From: Cycas panzhihuaensis | Lineage: Eukaryota > Plantae > Cycadophyta | Length of the DNA: 64,000 bases | Assembly (NCBI GenBank): GCA_023213395.1 | Contig: CM041465.1 | Coordinates: forward strand, 168,585,741-168,649,740 | Direction of reading: 5' to 3' | In this document: positions 16,162-62,038 of the stretch, piece after piece | How positions within the stretch are numbered: position 1 is the stretch's first letter | Layout of the letters: every line of letters begins with the position of its first letter | The notes under the pieces: model-generated | Seen by the model: only the letters and a program-made list of their open reading frames with translations | Told to the model about the DNA's origin: nothing | Database searches by the model: none | Position numbers and translations under genes: made by a program

Positions 16162-16607
16162 TGCCCCCTACTAAGGCCCTCCTTGACCTACGATTCTCAC
16201 ATGGGTCTATTTTTGCTAATGCTTCCTCCTATTCTCAAGTTTATCAAATTTCTATTTTCTAGGGTTTATAAGGGATTATATTTAAAAGTATGTGAATATG
16301 ATGACTTTTGAGTATGGAACCTAAAGGAAGAAACTATGTATTAAATTCATTATAGAACATAGATATTTTATGATCTTTTTGGAGCCATAACTTCTAGGTT
16401 TTAGACTTGGAAAGAAACATTTGGCCTACCATAATTTAGGATTTATAGTAGACATATCTCTCAAAGTCATAGTTTATACTCTTTACACAGTATCACCCCC
16501 AAAGCACGAGTTTTGGCAAGAGGTGAAATATTTGACCTACTATAGTTTAAGCTCATTAGCAGGAAGATTTTTGGAGCTACAATTTATACTCTTTGTGGAG
16601 TAATAGA

Positions 16608-22500: not shown

Positions 22501-22752
22501 GGATAGGAGAGTCCTTCCTTAGGATACTTAGCAAATCAAGGACACCCTTGCCTAACTCGAATCTAAGAAGGTACTTGCTAAAGGGGAAAGTCTTATCCAG
22601 TATTTATGGGTCTCTAAACATATATTTTGATGTATGGATGCCCTTTATGGGTGACCTATCCCCTTTCCCTCAAGGACCTTTAAGCCCTTGGCATAGTGAT
22701 AGTATAGACTTAATACCCTTATCCTTAGTTACCCCCTAGAGGCGTGCTTCCA
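19533..22752 (+). repeat. 5' LTR of Tat1 (3220 bp)
   Basis: TGTTTCCCAGC...GTGCTTCCA; collinear with 34789-37117 plus 42135-42913. Confidence 0.92.
22132..22151 (+). repeat. (AG)10 microsatellite in the Tat1 5' LTR
   Basis: Read directly; shorter and interrupted in the 3' LTR copy (~42286-42300). Confidence 0.85.
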
Positions 22753-22753
22753 C

Positions 22754-22771
22754 TGGCAACCGTACTAGGGA
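22754..22771 (+). promoter_or_regulatory. PBS of Tat1 (tRNA-Arg-like)
   Basis: TGGCAACCGTACTAGGGA, 1 nt after the LTR; resembles the TGGCGAC...CTGGGGA tRNA-Arg PBS type of Tat/Ogre elements. Confidence 0.75.
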
Positions 22772-23009
22772 CCTGCTAGTAAAGGAACCAGTCTAGTTTC
22801 CTTTGGATTAGCATTGCCTTTATCTTTTGGCATCCCTTCCCTGATTCATTGGGAAACCCCCAACATCCTTTACTTCACTTGTCTCTCTTCCTTCTAGAGT
22901 CTTAGGAGGAACTTGAATGAGATAATTCTCTCATCGTTTACAAGGTCTCCCTCCTTCTTTGGAAGAGTCACCTTATTCTCCCTTTCCCTTGTTTGATTTT
23001 GAATCAACC

Positions 23010-26000
23010 ATGGAGGGATTCTCTTCAGAATGGTCCTATCATGCCTATATTTTCGAAGCTCAACAACAACCTTCAACCTTCTTCTAGGGTCCCACCCAAG
23101 AGGGAAATGATCCTATATTTTATCCAAGTGACTGGAAGTACTCAAGTATCTACTGTCTCCCTACACATGGTGTAGGGGCTTCTTCTCTGATGGGATATCA
23201 CCACCTTGGTGAGAGTGCCCATGAGAATCACCTTGTGGGGTGTACTTAATTTAAGGAACCTTTTACCTCATATGAATAAGTAAGAACCCCTCCTATAGAT
23301 GTAGTGGAAGTATTACACCAATGCTTCTAAGTTGCAAGTCTCCAACCACCCCTAAAGTGGTTGGAAAGTATCTTGCATGGTGTAGCGCCTTCCTCTTCTG
23401 CATCTACACCTCCTTATTCCTCCCATTCCACTTTGATATCCATAATAGGGCCATCCCTTATTCTTTCTTCTTCCTTATGTATCCCCCATACTTTAGGGAC
23501 TACCCGAGGTATACTCACCTCCTAAATTAGGTTGAGTATACCTCCTCCTAGCCAAGTGACTGTGTCTCAACTAATCATGGTCCATCCATCTCTAACTTGA
23601 CCTAAGGGACCTTTATTTCCCCCTTCTCATAGCCATGTAGGGAACATCCCCATACATTCCCAACCTCAACCTAGGGATCCTTCTCTTTATGTACCCCTGG
23701 GATACACTTCCCAATCATGGGGGCATGGAAAGGGAAATATCCTTCCTATCTATGGGTGGACTCCCTCCACCCACATGCCATTTCACCACCTATAGGTGGT
23801 TCATATGGGCAGAATCCTATTCCACACCCATCTATTTCATCTTCGTATGTCACCTTGTATGTAGTGCCTTTGTAAGGAGGATAGACTCCTCCCCAAGGCT
23901 CCTTTCCCCAAGTTCCCTTTCAATAAGGGGCATACCCTTAAGGGGGAATGGGTCCCTCTTACCCATTCACCACTCTCCTAATTCCTCCTCATTTAGGATT
24001 AGTCCCTTCCCATCAAGGGGGAGGGAATTCATATCCCCCTTTTAATCAAATCTCTTAAGAAGGATTTAGGTATCCATGTCCACCTCCTCCTTTGTCTTTT
24101 ATTGACCCATCAGTTTAACCAAGGGCCCATCCCTTCATTGACTATAGGTTAACTCTTGTATCTATCAAGGCATTAAGGACCAACTTACCACCTCATTCCC
24201 CTAAGGTGCCCAAGTTTTATGGGACCTCTTTGCAAGACCTAGCCGAGCATGTTAAGAGTTTCTCCATGGCATGTATTGATTATTGGGCCTATGATCATAT
24301 CTTAATGAAACTTTCTCCATGTTCCTTGTAGGATGATGCCCTTAAGTGGTTCTATTACCTCCCTTCGCATTCAATTCATTCATTCCAACAACTAGTGGAT
24401 GAGTTCGTTAACTATTTTAATACGCCCTTAAGTGGTTTTGTTGCCTCCCTGCCCATTCGATTCATTCATTCCAAGAACTTGTGGATGAGTTCGTTAACTA
24501 TTTTAATATTGCTCATCCCTTTAAGAGCAAAATGAAAGCCTTACTTTCCTTTAAACAAGGTCACGAGGAGATGAACTGTGACTTTGTTAAGTGCTTTCAT
24601 GATCTTGTTCACTCCACGAAGGCCACATTGCTTGAGGAGCTAAAGAGGGATCTCTTCATGAATTCCCTCCATCCTGAGGTATATGTTGAGGTCTGTAAAA
24701 TGGGGGCAACAATATATAATTCTGCCATAGCTAAGTACTTGGCTCTTGAGGCTATTTAGATCCAAGTAGGTCTCAAGAAACCTCTTAAACCATCACAATG
24801 ATGAGAGGCACCTCCTCCATCATATGACATCAAACCCCAACAACTGTAAAAGTCTTCAACCCACTCAATGAAGAAGACTTTAGATCCCTTGACCTCTGCC
24901 ATATATTCTTTTGAACATATGATAAAGGAGCTTAAGCTTCGAGCTCCTCCCTCATTACCAAACTCCCATAGACCTATTCACTAGGCTTCCTAAGTAGCAC
25001 CTCCTAAGGATGGAAATACTCATTCCTGTTAAACAAGGAAGATTAAGCCTTCCTTGAAAAAGAAGCGGTGCTCCATCCATGGTGACTGCTTTCATAAGGA
25101 CTCGCAATATAGGGCACAATGCTCTAAAACTTCTCCACATCATGATTCCTCCCCTAGGCAAATATCTAAGCCCAATCTAGACTAGCATATCCATAGAGAT
25201 CCCTTCCCCAAACATGGGGAATGAGATTAGCATACCTAGCATAGAGGGAATTAGAATAGGGGAAGATCTCCTAACCCTTATCCTATTCAAGCTAAAGGGA
25301 AGGAGAATAGAAGTTATTCCTCTTCTTATGATTCTTGCCATCGAACCCCTTCACCTTCTCGATCTTAAAATAAAGGAAAGAAAGTCATCTAGATGCTCGA
25401 GACCATACCCATATATGCTTTGACTAGGTCTCAAGCAGCTAAAGAGGCCATAGGTATCTCTTCTTCTTCTTATCTTGATCCTCCCTTAAATAACCCTCCT
25501 TCTAAGATTCCTTTACTCCCTAAGTCCATTCTTGTCTACCTGGGTCAATATGATTTTTGAAGGGTACTTCCCCAACCAATTGTGAAAGGGAAACCCTTCT
25601 CAATCATAGATGAGTTTCATATTATGGCTGTAAGGATGTTTATGATGGACATCTTAAGGAGTTGCCTAGACCAATATGCTCTCCTTTTGGAGACTTTAGG
25701 TTTGGTGGATATATCCATCCATGCTTTGAGTGTTTCCCTAGGTTGGGAGCCCATCGTCTCTTTTAACCTTAAAGATCTCCCCCTAACCAGTGAAAGGGAA
25801 TACCAATGGCATTACCCTTTCACCATATCTATAGACACTCCTGAGTGTACCCTCAAAAGAACTATTATGGACAATGATTCTTCTATTAATGCTATACCTT
25901 TATGTATTATGTAGGAGTTAGGTATAATAGCTCTTGAGCCAGTTTCGTGGCATTGTCAAGGCTATGATAATAATAAGAAAATGCCCTTAAGTTATGTCTC

Positions 26001-29000
26001 CATCCCTCTTACCCTTGAGAACAAAACCATCCTCACTAATATTATGGTCCTTGATGTAGACATGGACTACAACCTTCTATTAAGATATCCATAGCTTGAC
26101 TAGATGGGAGCTATGTATTTGTCCCACTGGAGATAGCTCAAATTCATCCATGAAGGATGAATAAAAGTTGTTTCCTAGGAGCCTCCTCCCATTAAACAAT
26201 TGTACCAATCCCGTCAAGAAGTTTATGATCCAACAAAGGGCAATAAAGGCCCATCCACTCATGCTTCCACCTACATGATCGATATTCCTAGAACTTCCTG
26301 CTCGAAGGAAGGACCTTCCTCTTCCTCTTCTAACCTTATTCGTTTTGTCCCCATTAGTGTAGGGAGTTATGGGTACCTTATCATTTTGAGCGATGATGAG
26401 TCTAATGGTGAGGACAAGGATCTACCTCATCCTATATCCCTCCTAAATACTCGTAGGCAATGCTTGCTTTATTCTAGGTCCCAACAGAAAACCCCTTCTA
26501 TTAAGGAGCCCAATACTCCTACCAAATCACGCATGGTTATTCCCATCTCTTGTGTGACTTCCCAAACCACTTCATCATCCACCATGTCACCTTCCTTAAG
26601 TAATGAGGGTAGGGGACCTCCTATCCCACGATATAAGAGGGTGCTCTTTGACTCTTTTGAAGAGTCCCTTGACTATATCGAATGGTGGGTTGACTGTTAT
26701 AGGCCCATCGCTCATCCTGCTTCTCGCTCCTCATCCTCTCCAAGTCTAACTATCTATGGGAAAGACTACTTCGAGAATGATAAGGCATTACTAGAAGATT
26801 TACCAAGCTCCACGACCAACCTCCCTCTTGGTCACCATGAGCTTGGTTACTAGAAGATCCTAGCTCTTGGGTCATCCCTAGCTAACCTAAGCCAACCTAG
26901 TTCCTCTTTGCCTCTTCCTATTGACCAAGCCCCCCTCCATTTTGAGGAGAGGAATGCTATGTGCATGGGGGCAACCAAGGACATTGTCCTCATCCCTGGT
27001 ACAGTCATCAAGGTAGGAGCAAAATGTTCCCCTGAAGAAATAAAGGAATACACCCTCCTTTTTCAAGAGTTATGTGATGCTTTTATATAGGATTACACTA
27101 ACGTGAAGGGAATAGATCCCTTCACTGTCACTCATAATCTTACGACTATCCTAAGAGCTCATCCTGTGTAACAAAAGTAATGCCCCCTTCATCCTATGCT
27201 GTCTACTACCATTAAGATGGAAGTTGAAAAACTCTTAGATATAGGGTTGATCACTTTTATTGATTACCCTAAATGGGTCTCCAACATTATTCCCATTACT
27301 AAAAAGAATGGAACGATTTGGATATGTGTTGATTTTTGAGATATCAATAACATATATCCCAAAGATAACTTTCCTCTACCTTTTATTAATTAGATTATTG
27401 ATTGCACTACCAGATTCAAAGTCATGTCCTTGATGGATGGCTTCTTTGGTTACAACTAGATCCAAATCTCTCCTAAAGATGGTCATAAAATAGCCTTCAC
27501 TCTTCCTTGGGGTACCTTTGCTTAGAAAGCGATGCCCTTTGGACTCAAAAATACATGTACCACTTACCAAAGGGTGATGCAATTTATCTTTCATAATCTC
27601 ATAAATAAAACCCTTGAGGTCTTTATGGATAATATGATGGGTCTTTCTCGTAAGAGAGCCCATCACCCTGAGGATTTATATGCCATCTTTATTCAATGCC
27701 ATAAATACCACGTCTGCTTAAACCTGCTCAAATGCATATTTGCCATAACCATTGGTAAACTCTTCAGTTTCCTTGTTTCTAAACAAGGAATCCAAATAAA
27801 ACCTGATAAGGTCAAGGCCATCCTTGACATATCTTTGCCTAAAATGCAACATCAAATTATGTCATTTTTGGGTAGGTTGGGTTTCCTTAAGTGTTTCCTA
27901 GTAAACTTTGGCATAAATGCCAAGCTCATTACTAACCTATAGGAGAATGGAGCCCTATTTATTTAGTCTCCCAAGGCCTAGGAAGCTTTCTAAGAGCTCA
28001 AGAGAGCCTTGGCTTCTACCTCAATTTTGGAAACACCTCTCTTTGATCATCGCTTTATCCTTTATACCTTAGTAATTGATGAATCCTCGAGGGCTATGCT
28101 TGCCTAAGAGGATGATTTGGGAACTAAGTAAGCCATTTATTTCATCAGCCATATACTAGTCACTACTGATCTTCACTACTCTTCCATAAAAAAGGAGTGC
28201 CTCGTCTTGGTCCATACTACTAAGAAATTTAGGTACTACCTACTTAACAATACCACTTGGGTAATTGTTTAATCTAATTCCTTGAGATGCCTCTTAACTT
28301 GATCTTACTTAACTTATAGGACTAGTAAATAGGTCATCCTCCTTTAAGAGTATGACCTTCAAATCATCAATAGGAAATTGAGAAAGGAAATGGTAGTCGT
28401 TGAACAACTAGTTGATGTATCTATTACTAACTCTTCTAATATTCTCGTTGATGACTCCTTACCTGACAAGCTTATCCTTTCTATCTGAGACTCGCCATCC
28501 CATCTATTAGCTAGTAGTGAATGGTATGGGGACATTGTATAATACCTTACTAAATAGTAGTATCATCCTAATTCTAGTGACAAGATGAGGTCACAAGTTA
28601 GAGCTACTACTAGGCAGTATTTCCTCATTGAGGAGGTATTGGTCCTTCTTCATTATGTTAAACCTGATGAGGCAAACCAAATACTTCATGAGTGCCATAA
28701 CAACATTTGTGAGGGCCACATTAGAGGCCAATCTATGGACCATAGGATCCTCTACATGGGTTATTACTAGTTGTCCCTTTTCAAGGATGCCCATGCATAT
28801 GCATTGCATTGTCATAGGTGCCAAGTGCATTCCAACATCATTCATTTGCATTCTAAGGCCTTACACCCACCAAATCATCTCTTTATGGCCTTTTTCCCAA
28901 TGGGGATTAGACCCTATTAGAATCATAACCCCTCCTTACTCATTGTAATATAAGTTCATCTTGACTACGACAGAGTACTTTACCAAATGGGCCAAAGCGG

Positions 29001-29749
29001 TCCCTCTATCATCTATTGCTAAAAAGACCATAACCACTTTCATCTACCAGCATATTATCTATTAATTTGAGGTTCCAGATGTCCTAATAATAGATAATGG
29101 TGCTCCCTTTTGTAATAAGGAGATGGATGAACTTTGTAGGAAGTTTAGAATATCCCACAAAACCTCTTCTCCTTATTATCCCTTGGTTAATAGACAAATT
29201 GAATCTTTTAACAAAACCCTTATCAACATCTTAAAGAAAACTGTGGCTTAATCCCAAAGAGATTGGTACCTCCAGCTTCCTTTTACTTTATGGGCATATC
29301 ACACTTCCATTTACATGGCTCCAGGGATGACCCTATTCTCCCTCATATATGGGACCAAACTGGTCCTCTCCTTGGAAGTTAAAATCCTTGATTTATGTGT
29401 TTCTCTTTAAGGTCTCATCGATGAGGAGTCTTATCATCAAGCTTGCCTCCTCGACCTTAAAGCCTTGGATGAGAGATGCTTGATGGTATACCAAGAAAAC
29501 CTCACCTCCAAGGCTAGGTCATAAATGACATATAACAAATGTCTTCATCCTTGCCCTCTAAATCCTAGGGACCATGTCCTCAATCTTGAATATCTCCATG
29601 GTTGCTTATCCAAATTTAGGCTTAAATGGATCAATTCTTTTGCCATTCTTAAGAGCCTCGACAATGGTTCCTATAGGATAGTGACCCTAGAGGGTCTCAA
29701 ATTTGAGAAAGCTGTGAATAGTAAATTCCTAAAGATGTTCTATGTGTGA
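23010..29749 (+). pseudogene. gag-pol: Tat1 gag-pol (start approximate)
   Basis: PKFYG...DDALKWFYYLP (gag), CSIHGDCFHKDSQY (CX2HX4HX4C knuckle), IMDNDSSINAIP (PR), MPFGLKN...FMDNMM (RT), LHECHNNICEGH and WPFSQWGLD (INT), end AVNSKFLKMFYV*. Confidence 0.92.
24338..24509 (+). repeat. 86-bp tandem duplication inside Tat1 gag
   Basis: GCCCTTAAGTGGTT...TATTTTAATA(C/T) starts at 24338 and again at 24424. Confidence 0.9.
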
Positions 29750-30796
29750 CCCTTTCTACTCCTAAACAGGATAGGCACACCTCTCTCTCACTCTAAAATG
29801 AGCCTAAACTACCACTTTAAGTGCATCATCATTTCTCCTAGTCACAAGTGTAATGATGGTTTAAAGTAGCCCTTCATCCTTTTGACTTTGTTACTTGTAT
29901 TGCATCTCTTATCTCCCTCCCGAGGGTGTCCTCTCCTTTCCTAGTTGGGTAAGCAAACCTCCTTCACTTCTGAGTATGGAGTCACTCCCCAACTATGGCT
30001 TTTTTTTGCTTGGGTATCCACACCCCCTAGTCATTGCTTCCTTTGCATATCTATTATGTTCTTCCTAATGAACATGTGTAGCACCTCCCTCCTAGTCTTA
30101 TACATATCCATCATCGACATATATGGTGATTATATATGCCTAATATAAGTGTGGTGTTGTATGGAAAGAAGCACGAATATCATCTACATATGATCTAATA
30201 ACAAAAGCCATATATAATAATTAACTAAAACTACCTAAATGCATGACCCCTTGTGCATCTGTACACCTATATCCATATGCATATGCTCATCTCTCTATGC
30301 ATCATATAAATAAATAAACTATATAATAGTAACGCAATAACATCATAAATCAATCACAATATCATCTTCATGTATCAAATGGGGTACCAATTATCCCTCA
30401 TCTATATATATACAAAGTTATACGATACAACAGAATCATATGGTATATCATCAGTTAGGCAATATAACTTAGGAAGATGGAATCCTTGCAGGGAGGAGTA
30501 CAATCATATGTTTAGATGTGCTAAAAGCTCCCTAGAGGTATGAAGCTTTCTTATCTAAAATCCACAACATATAATCTCCTGGATGCCATGCTCTCAAGGG
30601 GTGTCATCCCCTCATCTATGGGATCCCTCGCTGGGGGACCAGATATCTCCTAGGCTCATGTGGCATCATTGCGAGCTCCCTGCCTCACTCTCCTACTCTT
30701 GAGGTCTCCTTTAGGTCATTGTCATGGTATGTGATTGGTTGCATGATGACCTGGTGGCAATCTGCTCTACTAATTAATCGTATCTAACCTAGATAT

Positions 30797-30798
<2 letters not shown>

Positions 30799-30836
<38 letters not shown>
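30799..30836 (+). repeat. (TC)19 microsatellite
   Basis: Read directly. Confidence 0.9.
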
Positions 30837-30839
<3 letters not shown>

Positions 30840-31239
30840 ACTCCATGGAGTCTCTCCTCCAACACAATAATCTGAATCCTGCTCTCTGCATCCTTGCTTG
30901 ATCCTCCTCCCTAGGCCTCCGGTCCTTATACCTAGCTCTATAGGATGCCTCCCTTAACCACTAGTTGGTCCCTCTCTTCCTATAGCCCATCCAAGGTGCC
31001 CTGCAGTTGGCTGACCCTTGCCTAAAGCTCTTGGGACTTTGCCACCTATATATCCATAACCCAAATCAGTAGGGTGAATGTTGTTATATGTGGCCCCACT
31101 GATCAGCGCTCTTCGCTAGCTAGGATGGGAGGATGCCCCTTCATATAAACCTGGGGGAATAACTTATATACTATCACCTCCAGTAGCCTTGCTATCTCTG
31201 CTACCCCTACTAAACCATGCATACTATATGTCAGTCAAG

Positions 31240-31278
31240 TATATATGTATGTGTGTGTGTGTGTATGTGTGTATATAT
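31240..31278 (+). repeat. Mixed (TA)/(TG) microsatellite inside predicted intron 2 of the antisense gene
   Basis: TATATATGTATGTGTGTGTGTGTGTATGTGTGTATATAT read directly. Confidence 0.8.
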
Positions 31279-33304
31279 AAAAGCATCAAAATCCAAATAA
31301 AACCATCTAGGGAAGTAGTAAATGATTGAAAGTACATTTAGTCAGGATAGAATCTCACCTCTTGGGATGATTGGATCCTCTACCTAGATGATCACCTCAT
31401 CTGCCATGGCTCCCCCTACTACTGCCTTTATCTCCTTGACCTCTGGCACTACCTTGCTTATCACCTAGGCTGCTAGAGCATCTCCACCCTCTAATCCCTC
31501 CTCTCCTAGGATCTCTCTATCTACGGAAGCTATTTCCACCTATACCTCTTCCACCATAGCCATCATTGTTGCTAGGGCTCTACTTGTAGCTCTCCCTCTA
31601 CCTATTGGTCCTAGTGGTCGCCTATTTCCTCCTGCTAATGTTGATGGACTTGCCTTATCTCTTGTAGCTCTTGATGGTCCTGTGCCATCCCCTCCATCTC
31701 CTCCATCATCGTCAACACCCTCATCATGTTCATCTCCTAGCTCTTTACCCTCATCATCACTTTCCTAGTGGATCACTTAATAAGGATCCACTGTATAGTC
31801 GATCAGGGTTAAGAGATCTAGCGATGTTGCTACCACCAATCGCTACACATGAACTAGGTTCTTAGCCTCTGTAAACCTCGTCTGCCACGTATGAACCATG
31901 GGAGCCTTAGCTAAGATGAGATGTGGTCCTCCTGGTAGTTCCACCACTCTGAAATGGTCAAAACAACAATAGTGGAATAGCGTGCAATAAGAGAAACCCC
32001 CTGCCCCAACTACTATATTTAGTTGAGTTATGGAATCAGGTTGGTTGCTATTAAGGTAGCCAAATCAAACCTCTATCCAGCCTTGCACCTCTTAATAGTG
32101 GTCATCTAGCCTCCTAAGATGTCCATGTAGTTCTATTTCTAGGATATCTAGAATAGAATAGTCAAAGTAATGAGTTTCCTTACACGAGGAACTCTAGATA
32201 AAACCATCGCCTAGACTGAGACTCCCCATCGATCTTATTACCCCTACCTTATAAAGAATTTAGATGCATCCCTATGGGTAGCATCTATGCTAGGTAGTAT
32301 GCTTAATAATGCTAGAATCCCACCTGATGATACACCCAGGATCCTCCTGATATCCCCATGTATGATAAATATATCTCACACTTGTAGGAGGTGAAATACA
32401 TGCCTCTGTCAATCCTAGTGTGAGATGATTTCAACTAGGAGGCACTAGTTGGATGCATACTATGGATTCCTAATGACCTTCAGAATCCTACAGTATCGTA
32501 GAGTCATTTGCTCCTACTATATCATCATCTCAATAAAACTCATCATCGCCATGCCTATATTCTTGTGGTCACCATGCCTATATTCTTAAAGTTATCAATT
32601 GTGAAAATAACCTGCAAATAAAAAAAAGCTAGTCAGAGATCCACTAATCCCCTCTACCATGTGCCATTCTCCCCTTTTAATGGTTGAGGCTCCATCAAGC
32701 TGGGTAGACTCATCCATCAGGGCATCTCTTCTCTTTTTCTCCTATCCAACATTCACCCCGTGCCAAACTCTATGGTACTGTAGATATTGATATGGGTCCC
32801 ACTAAAAAAAATTATATTTTCTTGGTGGCCATGCTACAAACTTCACGACATTGCGACATTTATCGTAAGGTCATGGATACCCCCCTAAAATGGGGGGTGG
32901 GGTGGCCTAAAAACTCAAAAGAAAAATCTTAAGTGGACCAAACTTGGCCCACTAGGACCAAGGCTACCTAATACCCTATTCCTCCCCTTCCCTGGGCCTC
33001 ATTTGAGTTCCAAGGGGTCTCGATCACCCATATGGGGCCTAAAATAAACTTTAAAAACTAAAAAAGTCCATTAAATAAAATTGATGAAATGAAATAGCTA
33101 GGGGATAGTCCACTCACTAGATCAGGCGTGATCGCTACCATCTTGTCTCCACGATCTCAATGGTTATTCTCTCTCCCTGATCCAATAGCCGGATCTCTCA
33201 TTGGATGCTCCCAAATACTGGCATAGCCTTGCTGCATAAAAGAAAGGGCTTCAGATCTCTCATGGGGGCCTATGAAAATGAATCCTATTTTCACCCTTCT
33301 CCCC

Positions 33305-33518
33305 TTTATATATGTGGGGTCCCCTAGGGGCACCACCTCCTTTCTCCTCATCGCGATAGCCCTCAGGATCATCTCCTTATCCTCACTCACTTTGTCTTTA
33401 GGGTCTGACCCTTATTTTGCTCCTATGGCCTTCATTTTACTCCTTTCTAGTGCATTTATGGCGATCCCTTTAGCCTCCTAGAGGCCCCTTGTGCCTTATT
33501 TTTTACATTGCTATAAAA
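33305..33518. promoter_or_regulatory. Putative divergent promoter region between the antisense PMD gene and sense aRH
   Basis: TATATAAA on the minus strand (33312-33305) and TATAAAA on the plus strand (33512-33518), pointing away from each other. Confidence 0.45.
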
Positions 33519-33700
33519 TGTGCCAATGTTTATACTCTTTTAACTTATTCCAGTATCTTGGATCTACTTTTCCCATTCGTTTGAGCCTTTAAGGCTCCTA
33601 GGGGAAGCCCCTCCTCCCTTCCAGGCCTCCATAGGCCCCTTTGTGACCCTAGGGGCTCTGAAGGAGCATACATACTAATCCTTTCTCACCCTTTCATCAG

Positions 33701-33769
33701 GTAAGCCTCCCTTGAGCCTAGTAGCCTACCCCTATGGCTCTCTTATCCTCACACAATTTATATTTACAG
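33701..33769 (+). other. Putative 69-nt leader intron upstream of the Tat1 aRH ORF
   Basis: CAG|GTAAGC donor, CTCAC branch-like motif, TATATTTACAG| acceptor, 103 nt before the ATG. Confidence 0.5.
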
Positions 33770-33872
33770 TTTTTTGAGCTATCGTAGCCCTGTCACTACC
33801 CCTTTCTTTTGCATCTTGACTTTACTGTCACTATCTCTTCTATCGCTTAACTCAAACTCTATTCTTTTTACT

Positions 33873-34295
33873 ATGGTATTACTCATCTTCACTGACAGAG
33901 GAAGTCAAGGCAACCCCAAACCTTTTGTAGCTACGTGGATCCTCTGTGATCCCTCTAGATATAACTATATGTATTTTAGAATCTTTCTACTCCAGGCTAC
34001 GAATAACAAAGATGATTACATAACTATTATTGAAGACCTTACCGATGCACTTCACTCTTACCATGGGCCTATCATCCTCTATTTTGACTCTCAGATTGTC
34101 ATGTCATAACTAACCCAGGTTTACTAAGTATGTTGCCCATGATTGAGAGCCCTTACTTCAACCACCAGGTCCCTTTTATCTTGCTTCTCTTTCATGGATG
34201 TTTGACACATTCCCCAATATCTTAATGTTAAGGCAGATGGCCTTGTATATCGCATCCTCAAGAATCATCTCCTTCTCTCAGATGACCCCTCCTAG
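33873..34295 (+). pseudogene. Stand-alone archaeal-type RNase H (aRH) of Tat1
   Basis: MVLLIFTDRGSQGNPKP...QATNNKDDY...YFDSQIVMS*L...HIPQYLNVKADGL fits the DG.SRGNPG / TNN.AEY / DSQLVV.Q / H+PR..N..AD.L pattern. One frame, 141 codons including the terminal stop; internal stops are all C>T explicable. Confidence 0.9.
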
Positions 34296-34778
34296 GTAGC
34301 CTAATAAGTCACTTAATCACCTAGGCTCTAGGATCATCCTTTCTTCTATTGCGATCTCTTCACACCTTTGAAAGTAGGAAACTAATGAGATTAAATTATG
34401 GTGACCACTAGGTTTATGTCTCCACTTTGTCCTTTATACTACCCGTGGCATGAGGCTCTTGCACTCTGATTCTCTACATGTACAGATCTTTGCTTATATT
34501 TATTTGTTGGTTGTGCTTATGACCTTGTATAATATTAATCTTACATGAGGGTGATAGGGGCAGTCCCCTCATCTCGTCATCCTTTTACACCAAACTCTTG
34601 GGTGACGTACAGGCAGCCCCTATGCTGCCCCTTCCTTTCCTTGTCCACGTGATCCACCACGACACCTACGACTCCCCTTGGATGATGATACTTTTTGCAT
34701 TGGTAGATGATACTAATCTTTTTATGTTGATAGCATCTGCCATCACCAGATGCTTCCAAGAGATGAAGCTCTATTGCT

Positions 34779-34788
34779 AAGGGGGCAA
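34779..34788 (+). promoter_or_regulatory. Polypurine tract of Tat1
   Basis: AAGGGGGCAA immediately before the TG of the 3' LTR. Confidence 0.85.
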
Positions 34789-37117
34789 TGTTTCTCAGCT
34801 ACTAAGAATGGATATGGACAACGTCTCTTAGGTAGGCATAGGTATATATCTCTATCCCTACTCCTCATTTACCTTAGGATGTGATGAGATGTTTGATGAT
34901 TATATTTTGTATGGCATTGTTATATGCATGGTTAAGATGCTTGGTTTGCCTACCCATTTTTGTTCCTATGACTATGATCTAGCTTATGACAACTCAGGAC
35001 CATCATCCTATGGCACTATATAGCCCCTCACGACACTTCCTCAACACTCTTAGGTACTCATGGGCCCCTGTGGCCCACCATTTATTCACTATTATCATTA
35101 TACATGATCCCTAACACCTTATTTTAGGCTTGATCATATTTGTATATATCATTCATATGTCATTGGGGCCTTTACTACCCTCTTTCACATATGTAAAAAG
35201 GTCTTACCGATGCCTAGAGGTCCTCTAAAGGCTTTACCAATCTAGTATACTACTCTGTTATGCCCTAAGACCCTTCTTTTGGGGGTCCCCTAGGCCTCCC
35301 TTTTATTTTTTCTTGTATTTTATTTACACTATGATAACATTTGCAGTACCATGACAAACTTTGTGGTGCCATGAAGTTTACCATGAGGTGATTGTCTATT
35401 GATCTTCGTGGTCTTGTAATGGCTAATTTCACATTTATTACAAAACTGACATATGGTAGACCATTGTTTCCTACTTAGAGAAAACCCTAATCACTTGGGA
35501 AACCTAATTTAGGTATAAAAACCCAAATCTAAGTTTATTTTACCTCTCTTGGCTCTCATATGAAAGGAAAAATGCCTCCTACCTGCACTTCTGGTTTCTC
35601 CTCCTATTCTTCTCTTCTCTAAGGATGAAACCCTAGAATGTAGGTCTGTACTAGCTCTTCTCTAATAGGTCTTCCTTCTATGGTACTCACTCCAATAGTA
35701 GCAAAAGTTTTCACAAGTTTTTTATCCTCATTCTTACCTCCAAAAAGGAGCCTTTCTTCACCTAACAAGAGGGGTCCTCATCTTTTCATTAGCACATGAG
35801 GTAACATCCATTTTACTTTAGTTTTTTGTGACTGTATCAAGTTTATTTCTTGTTGTTCTCCCCTTTAGCAAGTATATTTGGTATATATTTTCACTTATTG
35901 TAAGTTTTACATCCATCTTTATCTATTTTTAGGTGTCCAAAGGAAGGCAAGCCCTTCCTTCCTCCTTGATTGCACCTCCATACCCATTGGGTTCTTCATG
36001 GGAAACAAGTAAGTGGATTGTAGGATTCCTTTGAGAGGGAGAAAAGGAGTTCATAGCTAGGGTTCTAACCCTCACAACCATATCCTCCAAGGCATCCCCT
36101 TACCTCTCTTAGCTTTCCTACGTGATATCCATCTTGCACACCAAGAAACTCCTTAGGCCAGGGCTTCTATTGGTTATAGCATTTGTAGCCCCTTGCAACG
36201 CCTACAATAAACTCTTATACACATTATTTGGTAGTAAGTTTCTTTGTATATTTTTCCATTTCATGAGATTTCCATTTCCCTTGCATATCTTGTAAAAGTT
36301 ACAATATTATAACTTTTGTAACATTTATACTTTTTACAGTTTTACAACTTCTTAATCCTTGTAAGTTGTGTCACTTTTATTTGCTTAGAATTATAAACCC
36401 TCTCCTAACTTATTTCTTAGAGTACTCGAGCACATAATAGGTAGCTTATTTGAGGGAGCTATCCATTCTGAGGCTCTCCTTTCTCTCACCTTCAAAACCC
36501 CTCTTTTCCCCCAAATATTACTTAGAAACTTTTAAGTATATAGCGAGAAGATTGAGAAGCATATTGTTCCTTTTCTTTCATTACACTAAAGAAGTTTAGA
36601 TTTCATTTTGATGAGCATGTGTACACATAATTACATCCATATGCACATGCATATATATGTTATTGTTTGTTAAAAGGGTTTACCCACAAGGAAACTCTGC
36701 CTACCATAAGTAAGAAAGATTGTGTTGAAAGATATATATATCTCATTTACATTTGTTTTTCTTTGAAACTTTCCTTTAAAGTTCTTTTCTCTTTTGAAAT
36801 ACATTTCAAGGAAGCTAAGGAAGCCCTAACTATAGTTTTGTCCACAACACCAATCGTGGCTTATAACATAGGGTGATCAGTGAAAGGAAGATAATGATGG
36901 GAAAGAGTGGCACTCCATCAACTGGATTGTTTCTAGGTGCACTTCTTCCAACCTTCCTTTTCCTTCTTATCCTTTTCTTCCTCCCTTTCTCTCCTAAAAA
37001 GGAAATCAGTTGCGTTTATACATAGTTTACAATCATTTATTTTTTTTACCCACATCTATCTAAGGGAAAATATAAAGGAATATCACTCATATTTGCTCTC
37101 TTTATCTTTGCATTAGG
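34789..37117 (+). repeat. 3' LTR of Tat1, left part
   Basis: TGTTTCTCAGC..., collinear with 19533-21823; interrupted by copia C. Confidence 0.92.
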
Positions 37118-37761
37118 TGTTGGATATTGTGACAACAATATTTTGGGGCTAAAATTTTGGCATGTTTTCGGCGCGGTTTCCCCCTAATCTTTCTCGGGGG
37201 GTTCCAAGGGGGGCAGGAGCCCCCCTTGGCTAGGGGGTATGGGGGATGTGGAATGCCCCCCGCTAAGAGGGGGTTTGGGGGTGATAGCCCCCGACCCAAA
37301 AAATTAGCCCTGTAAACCTTATTAAATTGTAAAGAGAATCAGGGTTGTTTGATACAAATACCTTAGATTCTACGGCTGAGATTTATGCCTTAGATATTCC
37401 TCTCATGTAGCCCATTTTAGGGATTTTCTTATTATATTGTAATATAATGTAATGTACTGTGAAGAGGGCAGTGGCTGGTTGTTGTTCCAGAGAGCATTCT
37501 ACTACTGAGATGTACTATTTCTCCATTCTAAAGCAATAAATATTGATACCTTTCCTATGTGGATGTTTTCCTAGTACACTGCTAGGGTTTTACCACATTA
37601 TATTAGGTGCATATGTGATGTTTAGCTTGTATATTAATGTTATTGTATTATCTCTATTTTCAGAACTTGCTGTTTAAATCTTAGTTTTAATTCCTATAAC
37701 TAGTTGTAAAATAGTTCAGATCTTATGGTGGTTTAAGGTTTACGGCCTTGTAATTTCAACA
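37118..37761 (+). repeat. 5' LTR of copia C
   Basis: TGTTGG...TTCAACA, 644 bp. Confidence 0.95.
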
Positions 37762-37831
37762 AGTGGTATCAGAGACACATTTATTTTTTAACGAGTTTGT
37801 AAAGGTCTTGGTGTTGGCTTTTCTACACCAA

Positions 37832-40800
37832 ATGGTGAAACTAGTAGGTGCAAAGTTTGAGGTGAGAAATTCAATGGCAAGAATAACTTCGAGTTGTGGA
37901 AGCTGAAAGTGCATGATATTCTTATACAGCAGGGTTTGTACAAAGGCCTTGCATACAAATCAAAGAAACCCATACGGATGGACGATGATGATTAGGATGA
38001 CTTAGACAATAAGGTACTTAGTACAATATGACTGTGCTTGGCAGATGAAGTCTTGTTTAACATCACAGGGGAAGAGAAAACAGTAGGATTATGGACCCAG
38101 TTGGAAGGCATGTATATGAACAAATCAGTAATGAATCGAATCTACTTGAAGAGACAACTGTACTCATTACGAATGATGGAAGGTATAAAAATTGTTGACC
38201 ATTTAAATATTTTTAATACTCTTATTTGTTAGTTGACTAGTATCAATGTTAAAATTGAGGATGAGGACAAGGTTATTACCTTATTATGGCCATTACCCAA
38301 ATCCTGGGATAATATTATCATCTCAATTAGTTTTAGCACTACAAATGTATTGGATTATTATTCTATTGTGAGTGCTTTGCTAATGGAAGAAGTGCAAAGG
38401 AAATCTAGTTTTAAAACCTCCACACCAGAAGCCATGACAGTAAGAGGTAGAATGTTTGAGAGAGGACAAAACTCTAGGGATACATCAAGATCCAAGTCAA
38501 AGAGCAAAAAGAGTAAGCTCAGGTGCTGGCATTGTAATAAGATCGGTCACCTCAAGAAGGATTGTTACAAATGGAAGGAGTTCTAGAAAAAGGAAGATCC
38601 TGCCAAGGAGGCGAATCAAGTGGAGTCAAATCAAGGTATGGATGATGATGTCTTGGTTGCTTGTAATGTTTCTCATTATCACCATGACTGGTTATTAGAT
38701 TTAGATGCTTCGCACCACATGTGTCCACACAAGAGTTGGTTCTCATCATACCAACCTGTTGATGGTGGTGATGTGCTTATGGGAAATGAAGTTTCTTGTA
38801 AGATAGTGGGCATTGGTAGCATCAGAATTAAGATGTTCGATGGGGTAGTCAGAACATTAACTGAGGTTAGACATGTACCTGATTTGAAAAGGAATAAGAT
38901 TTCCTTGGGTGAATTAGATTCAAGTGGTTTTAAGCATATAGGTCATGAAGGAGTCTTAAAGGTGTCAAAGGGTGCCTTGGTTGTTATGAAAGCCTTAAAG
39001 AAAGGAAATCTTTATATTTTAGTGGGAAGTATAGATGTCAGCCAAGCAACGACAGCATCAAAGACTGTAGAAGATCCAGCTCAATTATAGCATTAGAGAC
39101 TTAGGCACATGAGTGAGAGAGGACTTAAGGTGCCGATAAACCATAAGTTGCTTCCTAACTTGCAGCTTTTAGATTTGACTTTCTGTAAACATTATATTTT
39201 TAGAAAGCAATGTAGACTCAAGTTTAAAGTAGGGAGTCACACTAGTAAAGGCGTTCTAGATTACATACATTCAGATGTATGGGGACCATCCCCTAAAATA
39301 TCATGTGGAGGATCATTGTATTATGTCACATTTATAGATGATTACTCTAGAAAGGTATGGGTCTATTTTTTGAAAAGGAAATCTGAAGTTTTCAGTGTGT
39401 TTAAGTAATTCAAGGCTCTAGTTGAGAATAGTACTGGTAAGTCAATCAAATGTTTAAGAACTGACAATGGAGATGAGTTCAACTCCTTGGAGTTTAAGAA
39501 CTATTACAGAGAAGCTGGGATTGAAAGACACAAGACCACTAGCTATACTCCATAGTAAAATGACATTGCTAAGTGCATGAATAAGACACTCTTAGAAAGA
39601 ACAAGAAGCATACTAAGTAATATAGGAGTGGAGTAGGGCTTATGGGCAGAAGCTGTTCAAGCAGCTTGCTATCTAGTAAACAGGTCACTAACATTTGCAA
39701 TAGATTACAAGATTCCTGAAGAGGTATTGACAGGACATCCATATGATTATTCAAATTTAAAAGTTTTTGGTTGTGATGCTTATGCCTTGACTGACAAAAG
39801 TAAATATTTAAAGTTAGACCCAAAATCGAGGTATATCTTTGTTGGTTATGGTGATAAGGATGGTGTGAAGGGATACAGGTTGTGGGATCCTACTGCCCAC
39901 AAAATCACCATTAATAGAGATGTTGTATTTGATGAATCTCCCCTTCTAAAATCAGACAGTGGAGAAGTTGAAATGGCCCAGGCGAAAGATGAACATCAAT
40001 AGGTCAAGTTTGAAACCCAGCCATTTTTAGAATTAGAAGAGCAGGAAGATATTTTTGAAGATGAATATGCAACATATTTATAAGAGTATGTGGATAGTCC
40101 TTTGCCAACAGTTAGAAGATCTACACGAGTCAGTCATCCACCTAACAGTTACAACCCATCTACTTCTATTACTTTGGTTTTTAATGATGGTGAGCCCACA
40201 TGTTATCAGGAAGCAGTAGATGATATCCATGGTGAGAAGTAGAAAAGGGCTATGTAGGAAGAGATAGATGCTTTGAAGAAAAATAATTCATGGGACTTGG
40301 TAGAACTTCCACATGGCAGGAAGATTATTGGTTACAGGTGGGTTTTAAAAAAGAAAATAGATGTTGATAGAAAGGTTAACAAATATAGGGCAAGATTGGT
40401 GGCTAAAGGCTATGTACAGAAAGCAAGTATTGACTTTCTTGAGATCTTTTCCCCAGTTGTCAAACTTGTTTCAATTCAAGTGCTGTTAGCATTAGTAGCT
40501 TCTCTTGATTTGGAGCTAGAGCAGTTAGATGTAAAAATAACTTTTCTACATGGAGATTTAGATGAAGAGATCTATATGGATCAACCAAAAGGGTTTGTAC
40601 AGGATGGTAGAAAAAGACTTATTTGTAGGATCAAAAAATCATTGTATGGCCTAAAGCAATCACCTAGGAAGTGGTACAAGAAGTTTGATGCCTTCATGGA
40701 GAGCTAAAATTTTAAAAGAAGTGAGTATGATCATTATGTTTACTTTAAATTTATGGATAATGGCTTATTCATTATCTTGGTACTATATATTGATGACATG

Positions 40801-41441
40801 CTAGTTACAAGCAAAAGCATGGAAGAAATCAATAAGCTAAAGGCTCAACTAGCTAGGACTTTTGACATGAAGGATCTAAGAGCTGTAAAATAAATCCTAG
40901 GCATGGAGATACATAGAGACAGGAAAAGTGGTAAGCTATGGTTATGGTAATCAGCTTTGGAGGTACAAGTAATCAGGTTTGTGGATATATTGATTTAGAT
41001 TTTGCAGGAGATTTAGATAAAAGAAGGTCTACTTCAGGTCATGTTTTCACTCTTGCAAATGGTACAGTTAGTTGGATGTCCAAATTATAGAGCACAATTG
41101 CATTATCAACAACAGAAGTTGAATATGTTGTTGTAGCACATGCTTGTAAAGAAGCAATCTGGTTACAGGGTCTATTAGTTGATCTTGGAAGGAGATGGAA
41201 AAATATAAAGGTATTTTGTAATAGTCAAAGTGCCATTTATTTAGCCAAGAATCTGATTTATCATGGTAAAATAAAGCATATTACTCTTAAGTACCATTTT
41301 GTTAGATAGGTTGTGGAAGTAGGTGGAGTGGCACTTGAGAAGATTCACACTAATCAGAATTATGATGATATATTCACAAAACCAGTACCAGTAGAGAAGT
41401 TTAAATGGTGTTTGACTTCTCTTGGCTTGCAAAAAAGATGA
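37832..41441 (+). pseudogene. gag-pol: copia C gag-pol
   Basis: EKFNGKNNFELWKLK, CWHCNKIGHLKKDC (knuckle), WLLDLDASHHM (PR), HSDVWGP...FIDDYSRKVWVY (INT), RARLVAKGY, QLDVKITFLHG, SLYGLKQSPR, YIDDML (RT). Internal deletion near 40945. Confidence 0.95.
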
Positions 41442-41489
41442 TGAAGGGTCCATAAAAGGTATCGGGTAAATTATTATCAAGGTGGAGAT

Positions 41490-42134
41490 TGTTAGATATT
41501 GTGACAATAATATTTTAGGACTAAAATTTTGGTATGTTTTCGGTGTAATTCCCCCCCCAAATCTTTCTCGGGGGGTTCTAAGGGGGGCAGGAGCCCCCCT
41601 TGGCTGGGGGATGTGAGGGGTATGGAACACCCCCCACTAAGAGGGGGTTTAGGGGCAATAGCCCCTGACCTAAAAATTAGCCCTATAAACCTTATTAAAT
41701 TGTAAAGAGAATCAAGGTCATTCAATACAAATACCCTAGATTCTACAGCTAAGATTTATGCCTTGGATGTTCCTCTCATATAGCCCATTTTAGGGCTTCT
41801 CTTATTATGTTGTAATGTAATGTAATGTACTGTGAAGAGGGCAGCAGTTGGTTGTTGTTCTAGAAAGTATTCTGCTACTGAGATGTATTGTTTCTCCATT
41901 TTAAAGCAATAAAGATCAATATCTTTCCTCTGTGGGTGTTTCCCTAGAACACTGTTAGGGTTTTACCACGTTACATCTGATGCATATGTGATGTTTAGCT
42001 TGTATATTGATGTTATTGTATTATCTCTATTTTTAGAACTTGCATGTTAAATCTTAGTTTCAATTCTTATAACTAGTTGCAAAATAGTTCAGATCTTGTG
42101 GCGGTTTAAGGTTTAAGGCCTTGCAATTTCAACA
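41490..42134 (+). repeat. 3' LTR of copia C
   Basis: TGTTAG...TTCAACA, a copy of 37118-37761. Confidence 0.95.
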
Positions 42135-42913
42135 GTAGGAACAAGAAAAGGAACTTGGGCTTTCGATATCCATCCTTCTTCCATGCATTATTAAGGAAAG
42201 TTTCATAGTTCATCCATACTCTTCCTCTTCTTTGCACCCTCTTTCCCCCTTCATTTAATTCCTTTTCTATTGATAAAGATAAAAAAGAGAGAGGGAGAGG
42301 ATAAAAGGAGAGAGAGTGAGAGTATCTTTTGAGTTGCACTTACTTAGCATTGATACTTTATATTATTACACTATCTTTAAGCAAGCCTAAGACACTACCC
42401 AAACCCTTAGTATACTTAGTCCACTTGCTTTGTTTAACCTAAACCCTAGAGGTATTCCTTTAGATGATCTTTAGTAAGATTCACCATTAGTCTTGTCTTT
42501 TTCTTGGATTTCATTTCTGTATACCAAATCCCTTTCACATCTTTCAACTAATTATTTCCCTCTCTTTTCTATAAGTCCCTACCCTATTAGGGCTTGCCTC
42601 TTCTTTTCCCCTTTTTTAGGGAATAAAACTTTGATCCTTCCTCTCCTTCCTTCACCTATTAGGATAGGAGAGTCCTTCCTTAGGCTACTTGGTAAATTAA
42701 GGATGCCCTTGTCGAACTCAAATCTGAGAAGGTACCTGCCAAAAGGGAAAGTCTTGTGTGTTATTTGTGGGTATCTGAACTTGTGTTTGGATGTATAAAT
42801 AGCCTTTGTGGTTGACCTATTCCCTTGCCCTAAAGGACCTTTAAGCCTCTGGCATAGTAATAGTGTAGGCTTAATATCCTTATTTTTAGTGACCCCCCAT
42901 AGGTGTACTTCTA
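42135..42913 (+). repeat. 3' LTR of Tat1, right part
   Basis: Collinear with 21983-22752; ends GTACTTCTA (decayed GTGCTTCCA). Confidence 0.9.
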
Positions 42914-53599: not shown

Positions 53600-53603
53600 T
53601 TTC

Positions 53604-53621
53604 TAGTGACTATATTGGAAA
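53604..53621 (+). promoter_or_regulatory. Decayed PBS of Tat2
   Basis: TAGTGACTATATTGGAAA differs from the Tat1/Tat2 consensus TGGCGACCGTACTGGGGA only by C>T and G>A changes. Confidence 0.6.
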
Positions 53622-53699
53622 AATACCATTTATTCTCTTATTAAAGCAATGAAAAATATAATTCATACTCCTAGGTAATCTGTGAGGCTTCAAGGCCTC

Positions 53700-60569: not shown

Positions 60570-61557
60570 CAACACTCATCCTTACCTCGATAATAAAGAT
60601 AAACTATGGCCCTGAATCTTTCTCCTTACATAATGAGCTAAAACTATGGGTAATTTCTTTTCTTTGGTCTATTCTTGTCTTTTCTATAGTTATATTTTGC
60701 TTTCATTAAAGGTCCTACTCATGATTATATAAGTCTTTTGCTCTTTCTAGCATTTGCATTGATTGTGAGTGCTCTCTTATGATATTTTTATGTTCTTATG
60801 TTTTGAGTTATGTATTGAAGGGAGAATTTAGGCCCTTAACTTTATCACGTTTTTGTCTTTGGAAGAGGGATATTTTTGTCATCTTTAAATATTTTATCAT
60901 TGGTTGAGAATATACTTTCATTTGCTAGTACTTCACCTTGAGGATTCCTTCTTGGTTATATATCACCTACTATTTTCTTTTAATTGCTTTTGTTATCCTT
61001 GGTTTATTATATCTATCTTTTGAAGTATATACTTATTCTACCATCTTCTTTTTACATTTAGAGACACTATGATTTTGATCTCCTAAGGAGATTAGTCTCT
61101 TACATCTTAGATTCTATTAAAAATGATAAATCCTTATTGAATAAAAAAGTTTCATAATTAGATAATTATAATTCCCTTCTTGTAAAAAAAATAAAGAGTG
61201 AAAGTGCAAGCAACAAAAAAAAAAGAGTAAAGAAAGAAAAGAAAAGTAAAAACAAAAAAAGTAAAAGAAAGTATATCATTATCATCCCCTTATAATTTAG
61301 GGTAAGTCGCATGATAGTTTCATCCTTACTTATCCATCTATAGGTCAGGTTCATTTGGATGAATCATTTAGGATTTTTGGGTCTAGTTACTTGGGTGACA
61401 CATTTTGTTAGTATTGACCATCAGCATCCTAATTATGAATTTTCTTTTCTTCACCATAGTCATAATTAATTTCATTAATTACCATCTCCTTATCGACTAA
61501 TTCCCATACTTTCCTTTATTGATCATATTGTCTCTAAATTTTGGTCATATTTTTCCC

Positions 61558-61959
61558 ATAGCATTGAGTATATTCACTGATGGAGGTAGTAGAGGTAACC
61601 TAAGACTATCTGCTTTTGCTTGGGTGATTTATGACCAATTAGGAAATCCTCTCCTCTCTACTTGATCTTTTATAATTAGGGCAACTAATTATGAAGCCAA
61701 GTATTTTGCTATTATAAGAGCCTTATCTAATATTTCTCACATTTACTTTAGACCCATTATTATATATTCTGACTCTCAAGTTGTAGTCTATTAGTTAGTT
61801 GGAATGTGTAAAATGCACTCACCATGACTCCTCTTTTATCATCAAGCTTCATTATTGTTATCATTATTTTTATCAGTTACCATCTAGTATATCCCTTATT
61901 CTCTTAATGTTGAGTCTGACACTCTTATTTCCTCTATATTAGATGATGACTTTCGTTGA
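61558..61959 (+). pseudogene. Stand-alone archaeal-type RNase H (aRH) of Tat2 (start codon decayed from ATG to ATA)
   Basis: (M)ALSIFTDGGSRGNLRLSAFAWVIYD...ATNYEAKY...YSDSQVVVY*L...YIPYSLNVESDTL. One frame, 134 codons including the terminal stop, ~1 kb after the pol stop. Not in the ORF track. Confidence 0.9.
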
Positions 61960-62038
61960 CTTTTACCTTTATAGTTAAGGGCACTTCACTCTAGAATAAG
62001 TATAAACTACCACTTTGAAATGAGTATAAACTTCCACT

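What the first reader, a model, noticed from the sequence alone, without database searches (positions are those of the whole stretch)
33701..34295. Free-standing archaeal-type RNase H gene with its own splice acceptor in a gypsy element (Tat1)
Seen: a complete ~140-codon aRH ORF with its own ATG, 4.1 kb after the pol stop and separated from pol by an antisense gene, so it cannot be part of the polyprotein. It is preceded by CAG|GTAAGC...TTTACAG|, with the acceptor 103 nt upstream of the ATG. Established: Tat elements carry an extra archaeal-type RH, and a position downstream of INT is the TatIII arrangement. Inference: here aRH is a separately transcribed or spliced accessory gene, like a retroviral subgenomic mRNA, so RNase H is supplied as a separate protein rather than fused to RT.
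Basis: partly seen in the sequence, partly recalled or inferred. Interest (0 to 1): 0.85.

Follow-up and report, generated by a model that had tools for sequence, protein, structure and literature searches.

The report
Retrotransposon's separate RNase H gene, leader intron
This is a broken old copy of a known kind of plant jumping gene that keeps its RNase H enzyme as a separate small gene; related copies keep splice-site-like signals just before that gene, which likely mark a short intron and hint at how the enzyme would be made.

Summary
The archaeal-type RNase H (aRH) frame is real (33873-34295) and stands alone, 4,123 nt after a genuine pol stop. It is not complete: it has four in-frame stops, in a decayed ~18.4-kb Tat element (LTR divergence 0.17). 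A solo aRH ORF behind integrase is already described as Tat 'structure #3' (TatIII; conifers, Cycas, Ginkgo), and its authors call its expression an open question. The addition here is the splice evidence. The donor at 33701 is the best-scoring of 616 GT sites in the element. In contigs from four DNA runs, 11 of 11 listed divergent ends keep GT or GC there, and 9 of 9 keep AG at 33768-69, a 69-nt intron. A second, distant Tat element in the window also has a solo aRH with a strong donor 256 nt upstream. The start Met is conserved in relatives. The best reading is a separately translated RNase H made from an mRNA with a short leader intron, likely from an internal promoter, rather than one long env-like splice. 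No transcript was seen, and the acceptor is weak and could lie 9-18 nt further on.

The parts
19533..22752 (+). 5' LTR of Tat element A (TG...CA), left target-site copy GGTGG at 19528-32; holds splice-like pairs (GT 20507 / AG 20638, seen in both LTRs)
22754..22772 (+). putative primer-binding site (TGG, 1 nt after the LTR); tRNA type not tested
   Evidence: sequence
24190..29749 (+). decayed gag-pol: gag, protease-like region (by eye), RT, native RH lacking its first catalytic Asp, INT; stop TGA 29747-49
   Evidence: Pfam; translations; Ty3 RT alignment of element B and the matching A column
29797..29811 (+). motif AATGAGnnTAAACTA after the pol stop
30700..32612 (-). decayed antisense extra ORF region (limits approximate); strong acceptor with AG ending at 32612; identity (PMD?) not shown
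32613..33700 (.). spacer between the divergent antisense ORF and aRH; candidate internal promoter (TATA-like element 33304-33313 readable on both strands); inferred
   Evidence: inference
33701..33769 (+). predicted 69-nt leader intron: donor G|GTAAG at 33701, AG at 33768-69 (alternative AGs end at 33778 and 33787)
33770..33872 (+). 103-nt ATG-free, pyrimidine-rich leader
33873..34295 (+). solo archaeal-type RNase H frame, 140 codons, four in-frame stops; start context -3 A, +4 G
34384..34398 (+). second copy of the post-pol motif, 89 nt after the aRH stop
34779..34788 (+). polypurine tract
   Evidence: sequence
34789..42913 (+). 3' LTR, split by a Copia-type insertion (37118-42134); right target-site copy GGTAG at 42914-18
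61302..61459 (+). element B: strong donor G|GTAAGT at 61302; candidate acceptors end at 61371 (70 nt) or 61459 (158 nt)
61558..61959 (+). element B: second solo aRH remnant, 988 nt after its pol stop (60567-69); Ile at the Met column, four stops

Best explanation
This is a decayed post-integrase Tat (structure #3 / TatIII-like) Ty3/gypsy element whose archaeal-type RNase H is a separate 140-codon gene, likely translated from its own ATG on an mRNA that would lose a short leader intron (donor 33701, acceptor at or just after 33769) and would likely start at an internal promoter between the antisense ORF and aRH. Shown: separation from pol, aRH identity, loss of the first catalytic Asp in the native RH, conserved Met, conserved donor and AG positions, four stops in this copy. 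Inferred: splicing; the promoter position; removal of upstream ATGs by the intron; supply of RNase H activity in trans to the RT-tether protein in the particle. This copy cannot make the enzyme.
For: Pol terminus is shared by three Tat elements in the window. The native RH has Leu where Ty3 RT has its TDAS Asp (for B; same column in A), matching the tether-like decay described in PMC10508981, so aRH would be the element's only active RNase H. Met sits 7 residues before the first Asp in 5 of 6 members of the near family (A, P0003, P0005, P0006, P0147; B has Ile) and 14 residues before it in 9 of 9 Ginkgo-type proteins, including the intact 142-aa gene model Gb_11691. 13 of these 14 Met-bearing proteins have a second codon starting with G. 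In one search (table not cut, 25% threshold, four runs) no variant row appears at 33700, 33701, 33703, 33705, 33768 or 33769. Of the 24 loose ends shown (205 not shown), the 11 that span the donor have GT (8) or GC (3) at 33701 with -1 G in all; +3 A and +5 G hold in the 10 that reach them, while -2/-3 vary. All 9 that span the acceptor put AG at 33768-69 (8 TAG, 1 GAG). Element B (32-38% aRH identity) has a donor ranking 2 of 390 in its element, 256 nt before the start; 2.9% of 300-nt stretches and 29 of 5000 shuffles reach that score. All three upstream ATGs in B's last 350 nt lie between that donor and the AG at 61459. Precedent for an internal promoter in a Tat 3' region: Grande gene23 (PMC7264820, passages).
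Against: No transcript was examined. The acceptor scores poorly (19 of 191 in A; 14 of 48 for 61459 in B). A branch-point-like A in the divergent copies lies only 9 nt before the AG end, so 33778 or 33787 may be used instead. The intron is short (69 nt) and only 55% AT, less than the leader behind it (63%). The most heavily covered part is 33712-33747, inside the intron, not the splice sites; it folds no better than shuffles (z -0.9 to -1.7). The loose ends come from a few related subfamilies seen again in each run, and neighbouring bases are partly conserved too, so they are not independent. The T of GT is C in 19-25% of laid depth. Gene callers force a start residue, which inflates the Met count (only P0005 has an internal Met). 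Nothing locates a promoter; five ATGs lie at 33312-33526 in this copy.
Confidence: 0.5

Rival explanations
1. aRH is a separate protein, but its mRNA is a subgenomic RNA started in the 5' LTR and spliced over gag-pol and the antisense ORF, like retroviral env or Bagy2; the 69-nt intron is at most its last splice.
For: The LTR has strong donors (21439, 21522) and a GT/AG pair kept in both LTRs. Acceptor-like sites lie upstream of the local donor (33401, 33624, 33700). Spliced env-like RNA is reported for barley Bagy2 (PMC7264820, passage).
Against: The acceptor-like AG at 33699-700 is kept in only 1 of 11 listed divergent ends. The two strong LTR donors differ in the 3' LTR copy. A conserved local donor is not needed for a single long splice.
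Confidence: 0.25
2. aRH is a separate gene, but the GT/AG letters are passengers inside a leader or promoter element conserved for another reason; the RNA is not spliced here.
For: The coverage peak lies inside the supposed intron. The acceptor is weak and the intron short and GC-rich. The copies compared share ancestry.
Against: Variation at the donor follows the splice consensus: only GT or GC, with -1 G, +3 A and +5 G fixed. A strong donor recurs before aRH in distant element B.
Confidence: 0.18
3. Splicing joins pol coding sequence to aRH in frame, giving a Pol-aRH fusion as drawn for lineage III in 2015.
For: The aRH frame is open from 33705 to the ATG in this copy. Ustyantsev 2015 placed aRH at the Pol C-terminus. 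Ogre splices an intron between gag-PR and pol.
Against: Met and its start context are conserved. Leader lengths differ (103 vs 98 nt), and B has a stop in the upstream frame. Contigs laid on the leader are fewer than on the ORF (weak, since contig depth cannot rank parts). Longer, fused proteins were not searched for.
Confidence: 0.07

Closest known systems
Tat structure #3, 'post-integrase' (clusters Tat H in conifers, Tat I in Cycas and Ginkgo; Biryukov & Ustyantsev 2023, PMC10508981; PMC13468544) = TatIII of REXdb (PMC6317226)
   Same: Ty3/gypsy order, archaeal-type aRH in a separate ORF after INT, degraded native RH, 5-bp target duplication, antisense extra ORF region in the 3' part.
   Different: No splice signals, intron or promoter are mentioned in those papers ('splic' 0 hits in both main texts). 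Here aRH lies beyond the antisense ORF, whereas the 2015 paper put it at the Pol C-terminus. At 18.4 kb the element is slightly above the 12.7-17.3 kb range of 39 TatIII elements.
Maize Grande gene23 (Retand/Tat), accessory gene with its own internal promoter (seen through review PMC7264820)
   Same: Accessory gene in the long pol-3'LTR region of a Tat element, expressed apart from gag-pol.
   Different: gene23 is antisense and non-enzymatic; here a sense, core replication enzyme would be expressed this way.
Spliced env-like RNA of barley Bagy2 and retroviral env (review PMC7264820)
   Same: Sense ORF between pol and the 3' LTR preceded by an acceptor.
   Different: Here a conserved donor lies only 69 nt upstream, and the product is RNase H.
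Stand-alone archaeal-type RNases HI (PDB 3U3G, 4E19, 3HST, 2EHG)
   Same: Same length and domain, Met directly before the first strand.
   Different: Carried by a retrotransposon; broken in both window copies.

Membership tests
Tat structure #3 / TatIII | Ty3/gypsy domain order gag-PR-RT-RH-INT | tested here: met
   Pfam gag, RT, RH, INT in that order; protease judged by eye only
Tat structure #3 / TatIII | Additional RNase H of archaeal type | tested here: met
   Pfam RVT_3 and PDB hits to archaeal-type RNases HI; no tree built
Tat structure #3 / TatIII | aRH downstream of INT in a separate ORF | tested here: met
   4,123 nt after the pol stop in A, 988 nt in B; a profile search found no other aRH in the window, none between PR and RT
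Tat structure #3 / TatIII | Degraded catalytic core of the native RH | tested here: met
   First Asp replaced in A, B and C; other columns blurred by decay
Tat structure #3 / TatIII | 5-bp target site duplication | tested here: met
   GGTGG / GGTAG, 4 of 5 alike
Tat structure #3 / TatIII | PBS for tRNA-Arg or tRNA-His | not tested
   TGG 1 nt after the LTR seen; no tRNA set compared
Tat structure #3 / TatIII | Antisense extra ORF with plant mobile domain | tested here: inconclusive
   Decayed antisense frame, no Pfam hit in six pieces scanned or in whole frames
Tat structure #3 / TatIII | RT groups with Tat H/I in a phylogeny | not testable with these tools
   No REXdb or DARTS reference set at hand
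Tat structure #3 / TatIII | Gymnosperm host | tested here: inconclusive
   Host unnamed; nearest named relatives of the aRH are Ginkgo gene models at about 40% identity
Retrovirus-like spliced subgenomic gene (env type) | LTR-initiated RNA spliced from a 5' donor to an acceptor before the ORF | not testable with these tools
   No RNA examined; local donor 69 nt upstream is conserved

The most novel reading that the evidence does not exclude
Post-integrase Tat elements run a two-gene internal cassette: a bidirectional promoter between the antisense ORF and aRH drives both genes, each with a spliced leader. The retrotransposon's only active RNase H is thus made as a free, separately regulated subunit that must join the RT in trans.
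Probability: 0.3. Interest if true: 0.7.

Novelty: new member of a known kind. Interest (0 to 1): 0.45.

Why it matters
The authors who defined structure #3 wrote that an aRH outside pol raises the question of how it can work from a separate ORF (PMC10508981), and a 2026 paper still calls its status controversial (PMC13468544). Conserved donor and acceptor positions and a conserved start codon give exact targets for RACE and long-read tests. If confirmed, an LTR retrotransposon would supply RNase H as a free subunit, a natural case of RT and RNase H working as separate proteins. The arrangement itself is not new, and this copy is dead.

Tried and rejected
No whole genome is held for the window. 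The look-up of sequencing runs: no RNA holder listed, which is no evidence on expression; 5 of the 6 small-share DNA runs were laid (X1, X2, X3, X5; X1, X3, X5, X6). Word-index protein searches with P0001 and P0002 found nothing; longer, fused forms were never searched, as all three searches used near lengths. Viral-contig scan: 104 pattern matches, none confirmed; the wider alignment gave no usable pattern. The metagenome scan for the donor motif gave 7 loci, 0 of 7 with aRH or window similarity. A recursive-splice (AG|GT) reading of 33700/33701 was rejected because that AG is kept in 1 of 11 listed ends. Comparing the P0005 upstream extension with the three leader frames was uninformative. 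The A/B leader DNA alignment is too divergent to fix homologous splice sites. The intron hairpin is not significant. Rfam gave one chance-level hit on a microsatellite. The 6-mer GGTAAG is not enriched in the window (29 vs 31 expected). dN/dS could not be computed: no DNA of sibling copies was obtainable. The table was cut (353 rows hidden), so absence of rows there was not used. Earlier-findings look-ups returned nothing. The antisense ORF's identity stays open.

Full report
Observation. The frame starts with ATG at 33873 and ends with TAG at 34293-95, 140 codons, but has stops at codons 79, 85, 90 and 111. Read with X at the stops it matches Pfam RVT_3 (E=1.3e-5) and archaeal-type RNases HI in the PDB (4E19, 3U3G, 3HST). 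Three catalytic Asp columns are kept; the Glu column reads Asp. 'Complete ORF' is therefore wrong for this copy. The GT is at 33701-02 and the AG at 33768-69, enclosing 69 nt; 103 ATG-free bases follow.

The element. LTRs of about 3.2 kb run 19533-22752 and 34789-42913, the second split by a Copia-type insertion at 37118-42134. They are 83.7% alike (K2P 0.17), with a 5-bp target duplication matching at 4 of 5. Net length is about 18.4 kb. Gag, RT, RH and INT are recognised by Pfam; the RT-to-INT frame holds 22 stops in 636 codons, so the whole element is old. Pol ends KFLKMFYV* at 29749, and two other Tat elements in the window end QYLRKFYA* and LFLRKYYA*, so this stop is original. aRH begins 4,123 nt later, past a decayed antisense frame that has no Pfam match. 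The native RH has lost the Asp of the Ty3 TDAS motif (for element B, same column in A and C).

A second case in the window. tblastn found another aRH remnant at 61558-61956 (32% identity; RVT_3 E=8.6e-14; 3U3G E=3.8e-12). It lies 988 nt after the pol stop of element B, with no antisense ORF between. It has Ile at the Met column and four stops. A donor G|GTAAGT lies 256 nt upstream, rank 1 of 43 in the pol-aRH gap and 2 of 390 in the element. 369 of 12,728 300-nt stretches (2.9%) and 29 of 5000 shuffles reach that score. B's acceptor is ambiguous: AGs give 70, 85 or 158 nt; the 158-nt choice removes all three upstream ATGs. Scores use rough recalled plant splice frequencies.

Start codon. Relatives found put Met 7 residues before the first Asp in P0003, P0005, P0006 and P0147, as in A (B has Ile): 5 of 6. 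Nine Ginkgo-type proteins put it 14 residues before: 9 of 9, among them the intact 142-aa gene model Gb_11691. The N-terminally cut P0009 and P0090 and all bacterial hits were left out. Gene callers force a start residue, so only P0005 is unbiased, but the starts fall on one column rather than scattering. The context in A is -3 A, +4 G.

Splice signals in sibling copies. Logan contigs of DNA runs were laid at 80% likeness. In one search (33640-33800, 248-352 contigs per run, 23 variant rows, table not cut) no row reached 25% at 33700, 33701, 33703, 33705, 33768 or 33769. The +2 T is C in 19-25% of depth, the -2 A is G in 21-36%, and the base before the acceptor AG is T in 84-100%, still YAG. 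Of 24 loose ends shown (205 hidden), 11 span the donor: 8 GT and 3 GC, all at 33701, with -1 G in all, and +3 A and +5 G in the 10 that reach them. Nine span the acceptor, all with AG at 33768-69. That GC donors are functional is recalled knowledge. Against: these ends are a few related subfamilies seen again in each run, flanking bases are partly conserved too, and the heaviest cover is inside the intron (33712-33747). The intron is short and 55% AT. A branch-point-like A sits only 9 nt before the AG end, so the AGs at 33778 or 33787 may serve instead. The AG just before the donor is kept in 1 of 11 ends, which excludes a recursive AG|GT site.

Mechanism. With the native RH disabled, aRH would be the only active RNase H of the element (inference, in line with PMC10508981). 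It has its own Met and cannot be read from pol. The simplest reading is a separate mRNA with a short leader intron. The antisense ORF has a very strong acceptor at 32612 on the minus strand, and a TATA-like element at 33304-13 reads on both strands, so the 1.1-kb spacer could be a shared internal promoter, as Grande gene23 has its own promoter (PMC7264820). An LTR-started subgenomic RNA remains possible because the LTR has strong donors. How a free aRH would reach the particle is unknown; binding to the RT-tether protein or to Gag is a guess. I put 0.5 on the internal-promoter model with a leader intron, 0.25 on LTR-started splicing, 0.18 on no splicing, and 0.07 on a spliced Pol fusion.

What is known. 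Biryukov and Ustyantsev 2023 (PMC10508981; whole main text read; supplement searched by terms) describe structure #3, aRH in a separate ORF, in conifers, Cycas (68% of Tat elements) and Ginkgo, and say it raises questions on how the domain works. Their text says 'upstream of pol'; the 2026 paper (PMC13468544; passages) defines structure 3 as post-integrase and calls the fused-or-separate question controversial. Ustyantsev 2015 (PMC4408406; section 6 and passages) placed aRH at the Pol C-terminus with an antisense PMD ORF at the 3' end. Neumann 2019 (PMC6317226; passages and supplementary file 5) gives TatIII features; its large supplements with element coordinates could not be read and may show INT-aRH distances. 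PMC7264820 and PMC11963269 were seen as passages, and PMC5603734 gave nothing useful. Searches found no report of splice signals for this gene; subscription journals are not covered. Figures were not visible.

Verdict. The arrangement is known and this copy is dead, so the finding is less surprising than first scored. The conserved splice positions and start codon appear unreported and make a stated open question testable. Novelty: new member of a known kind. Interest 0.45.

Noticed in passing
window 29797, 34384, 60632, 61995, 62019 (+); 16543-57, 16470-84 (-): Motif AATGAGnnTAAACTA follows the pol stop in three Tat elements and the aRH stop in both that have one: 8 matches against 0.4 expected (the eighth, 37023 minus, lies in an LTR). 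The perfect match in element C was not used to derive it. It may be a 3'-end signal, or show that the aRH cassette carries a copy of the post-pol region.
   Followed up: partly
window about 53600-62070 (+): Second Tat element B with a solo aRH 988 nt after pol and no antisense ORF in between; an A-rich tract at about 61180-61275 precedes the donor; cut at about 62070 by another inverted element.
   Followed up: yes
window about 16600-19530 and beyond 42914 (-): Element A is nested in the pol of a third Tat-like element C on the minus strand; no aRH was found for C in the window.
   Followed up: partly
window 33712-33747: The stretch with most laid contigs lies inside the predicted intron and can form a weak hairpin; unexplained.
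   Followed up: partly
window 32612 (-): Textbook acceptor (branch-point motif, T tract, TGCAG|G) just before the antisense ORF, the best score of 448 minus-strand AGs between pol and aRH; suggests that gene also has a spliced leader.
   Followed up: partly
window 20507-20638 and 22458; 3' LTR 35801-35933: GT/AG pair and a further strong acceptor inside the 3.2-kb LTR, kept in both LTR copies: probable leader introns of the genomic RNA.
   Followed up: no
window 37118-42134: Near-complete Copia-type element inserted in the 3' LTR, LTR divergence 0.136 against 0.17 for its host, consistent with the nesting order.
   Followed up: partly
window 26180-26950 and 56700-57750: Long Ser/Pro-rich spacers between protease and RT in both Tat elements, where structure #2 carries aRH; no aRH or Pfam match in B's spacer or by the aRH profile in either.
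   Followed up: partly
window 24338-24508: 86-nt tandem duplication inside gag of element A.
   Followed up: no
proteins P0157, P0158, P0160: Ginkgo gene models Gb_11691, Gb_19334 and Gb_07833 look like solo Tat aRH ORFs annotated as host genes; their genomic context was not available.
   Followed up: partly
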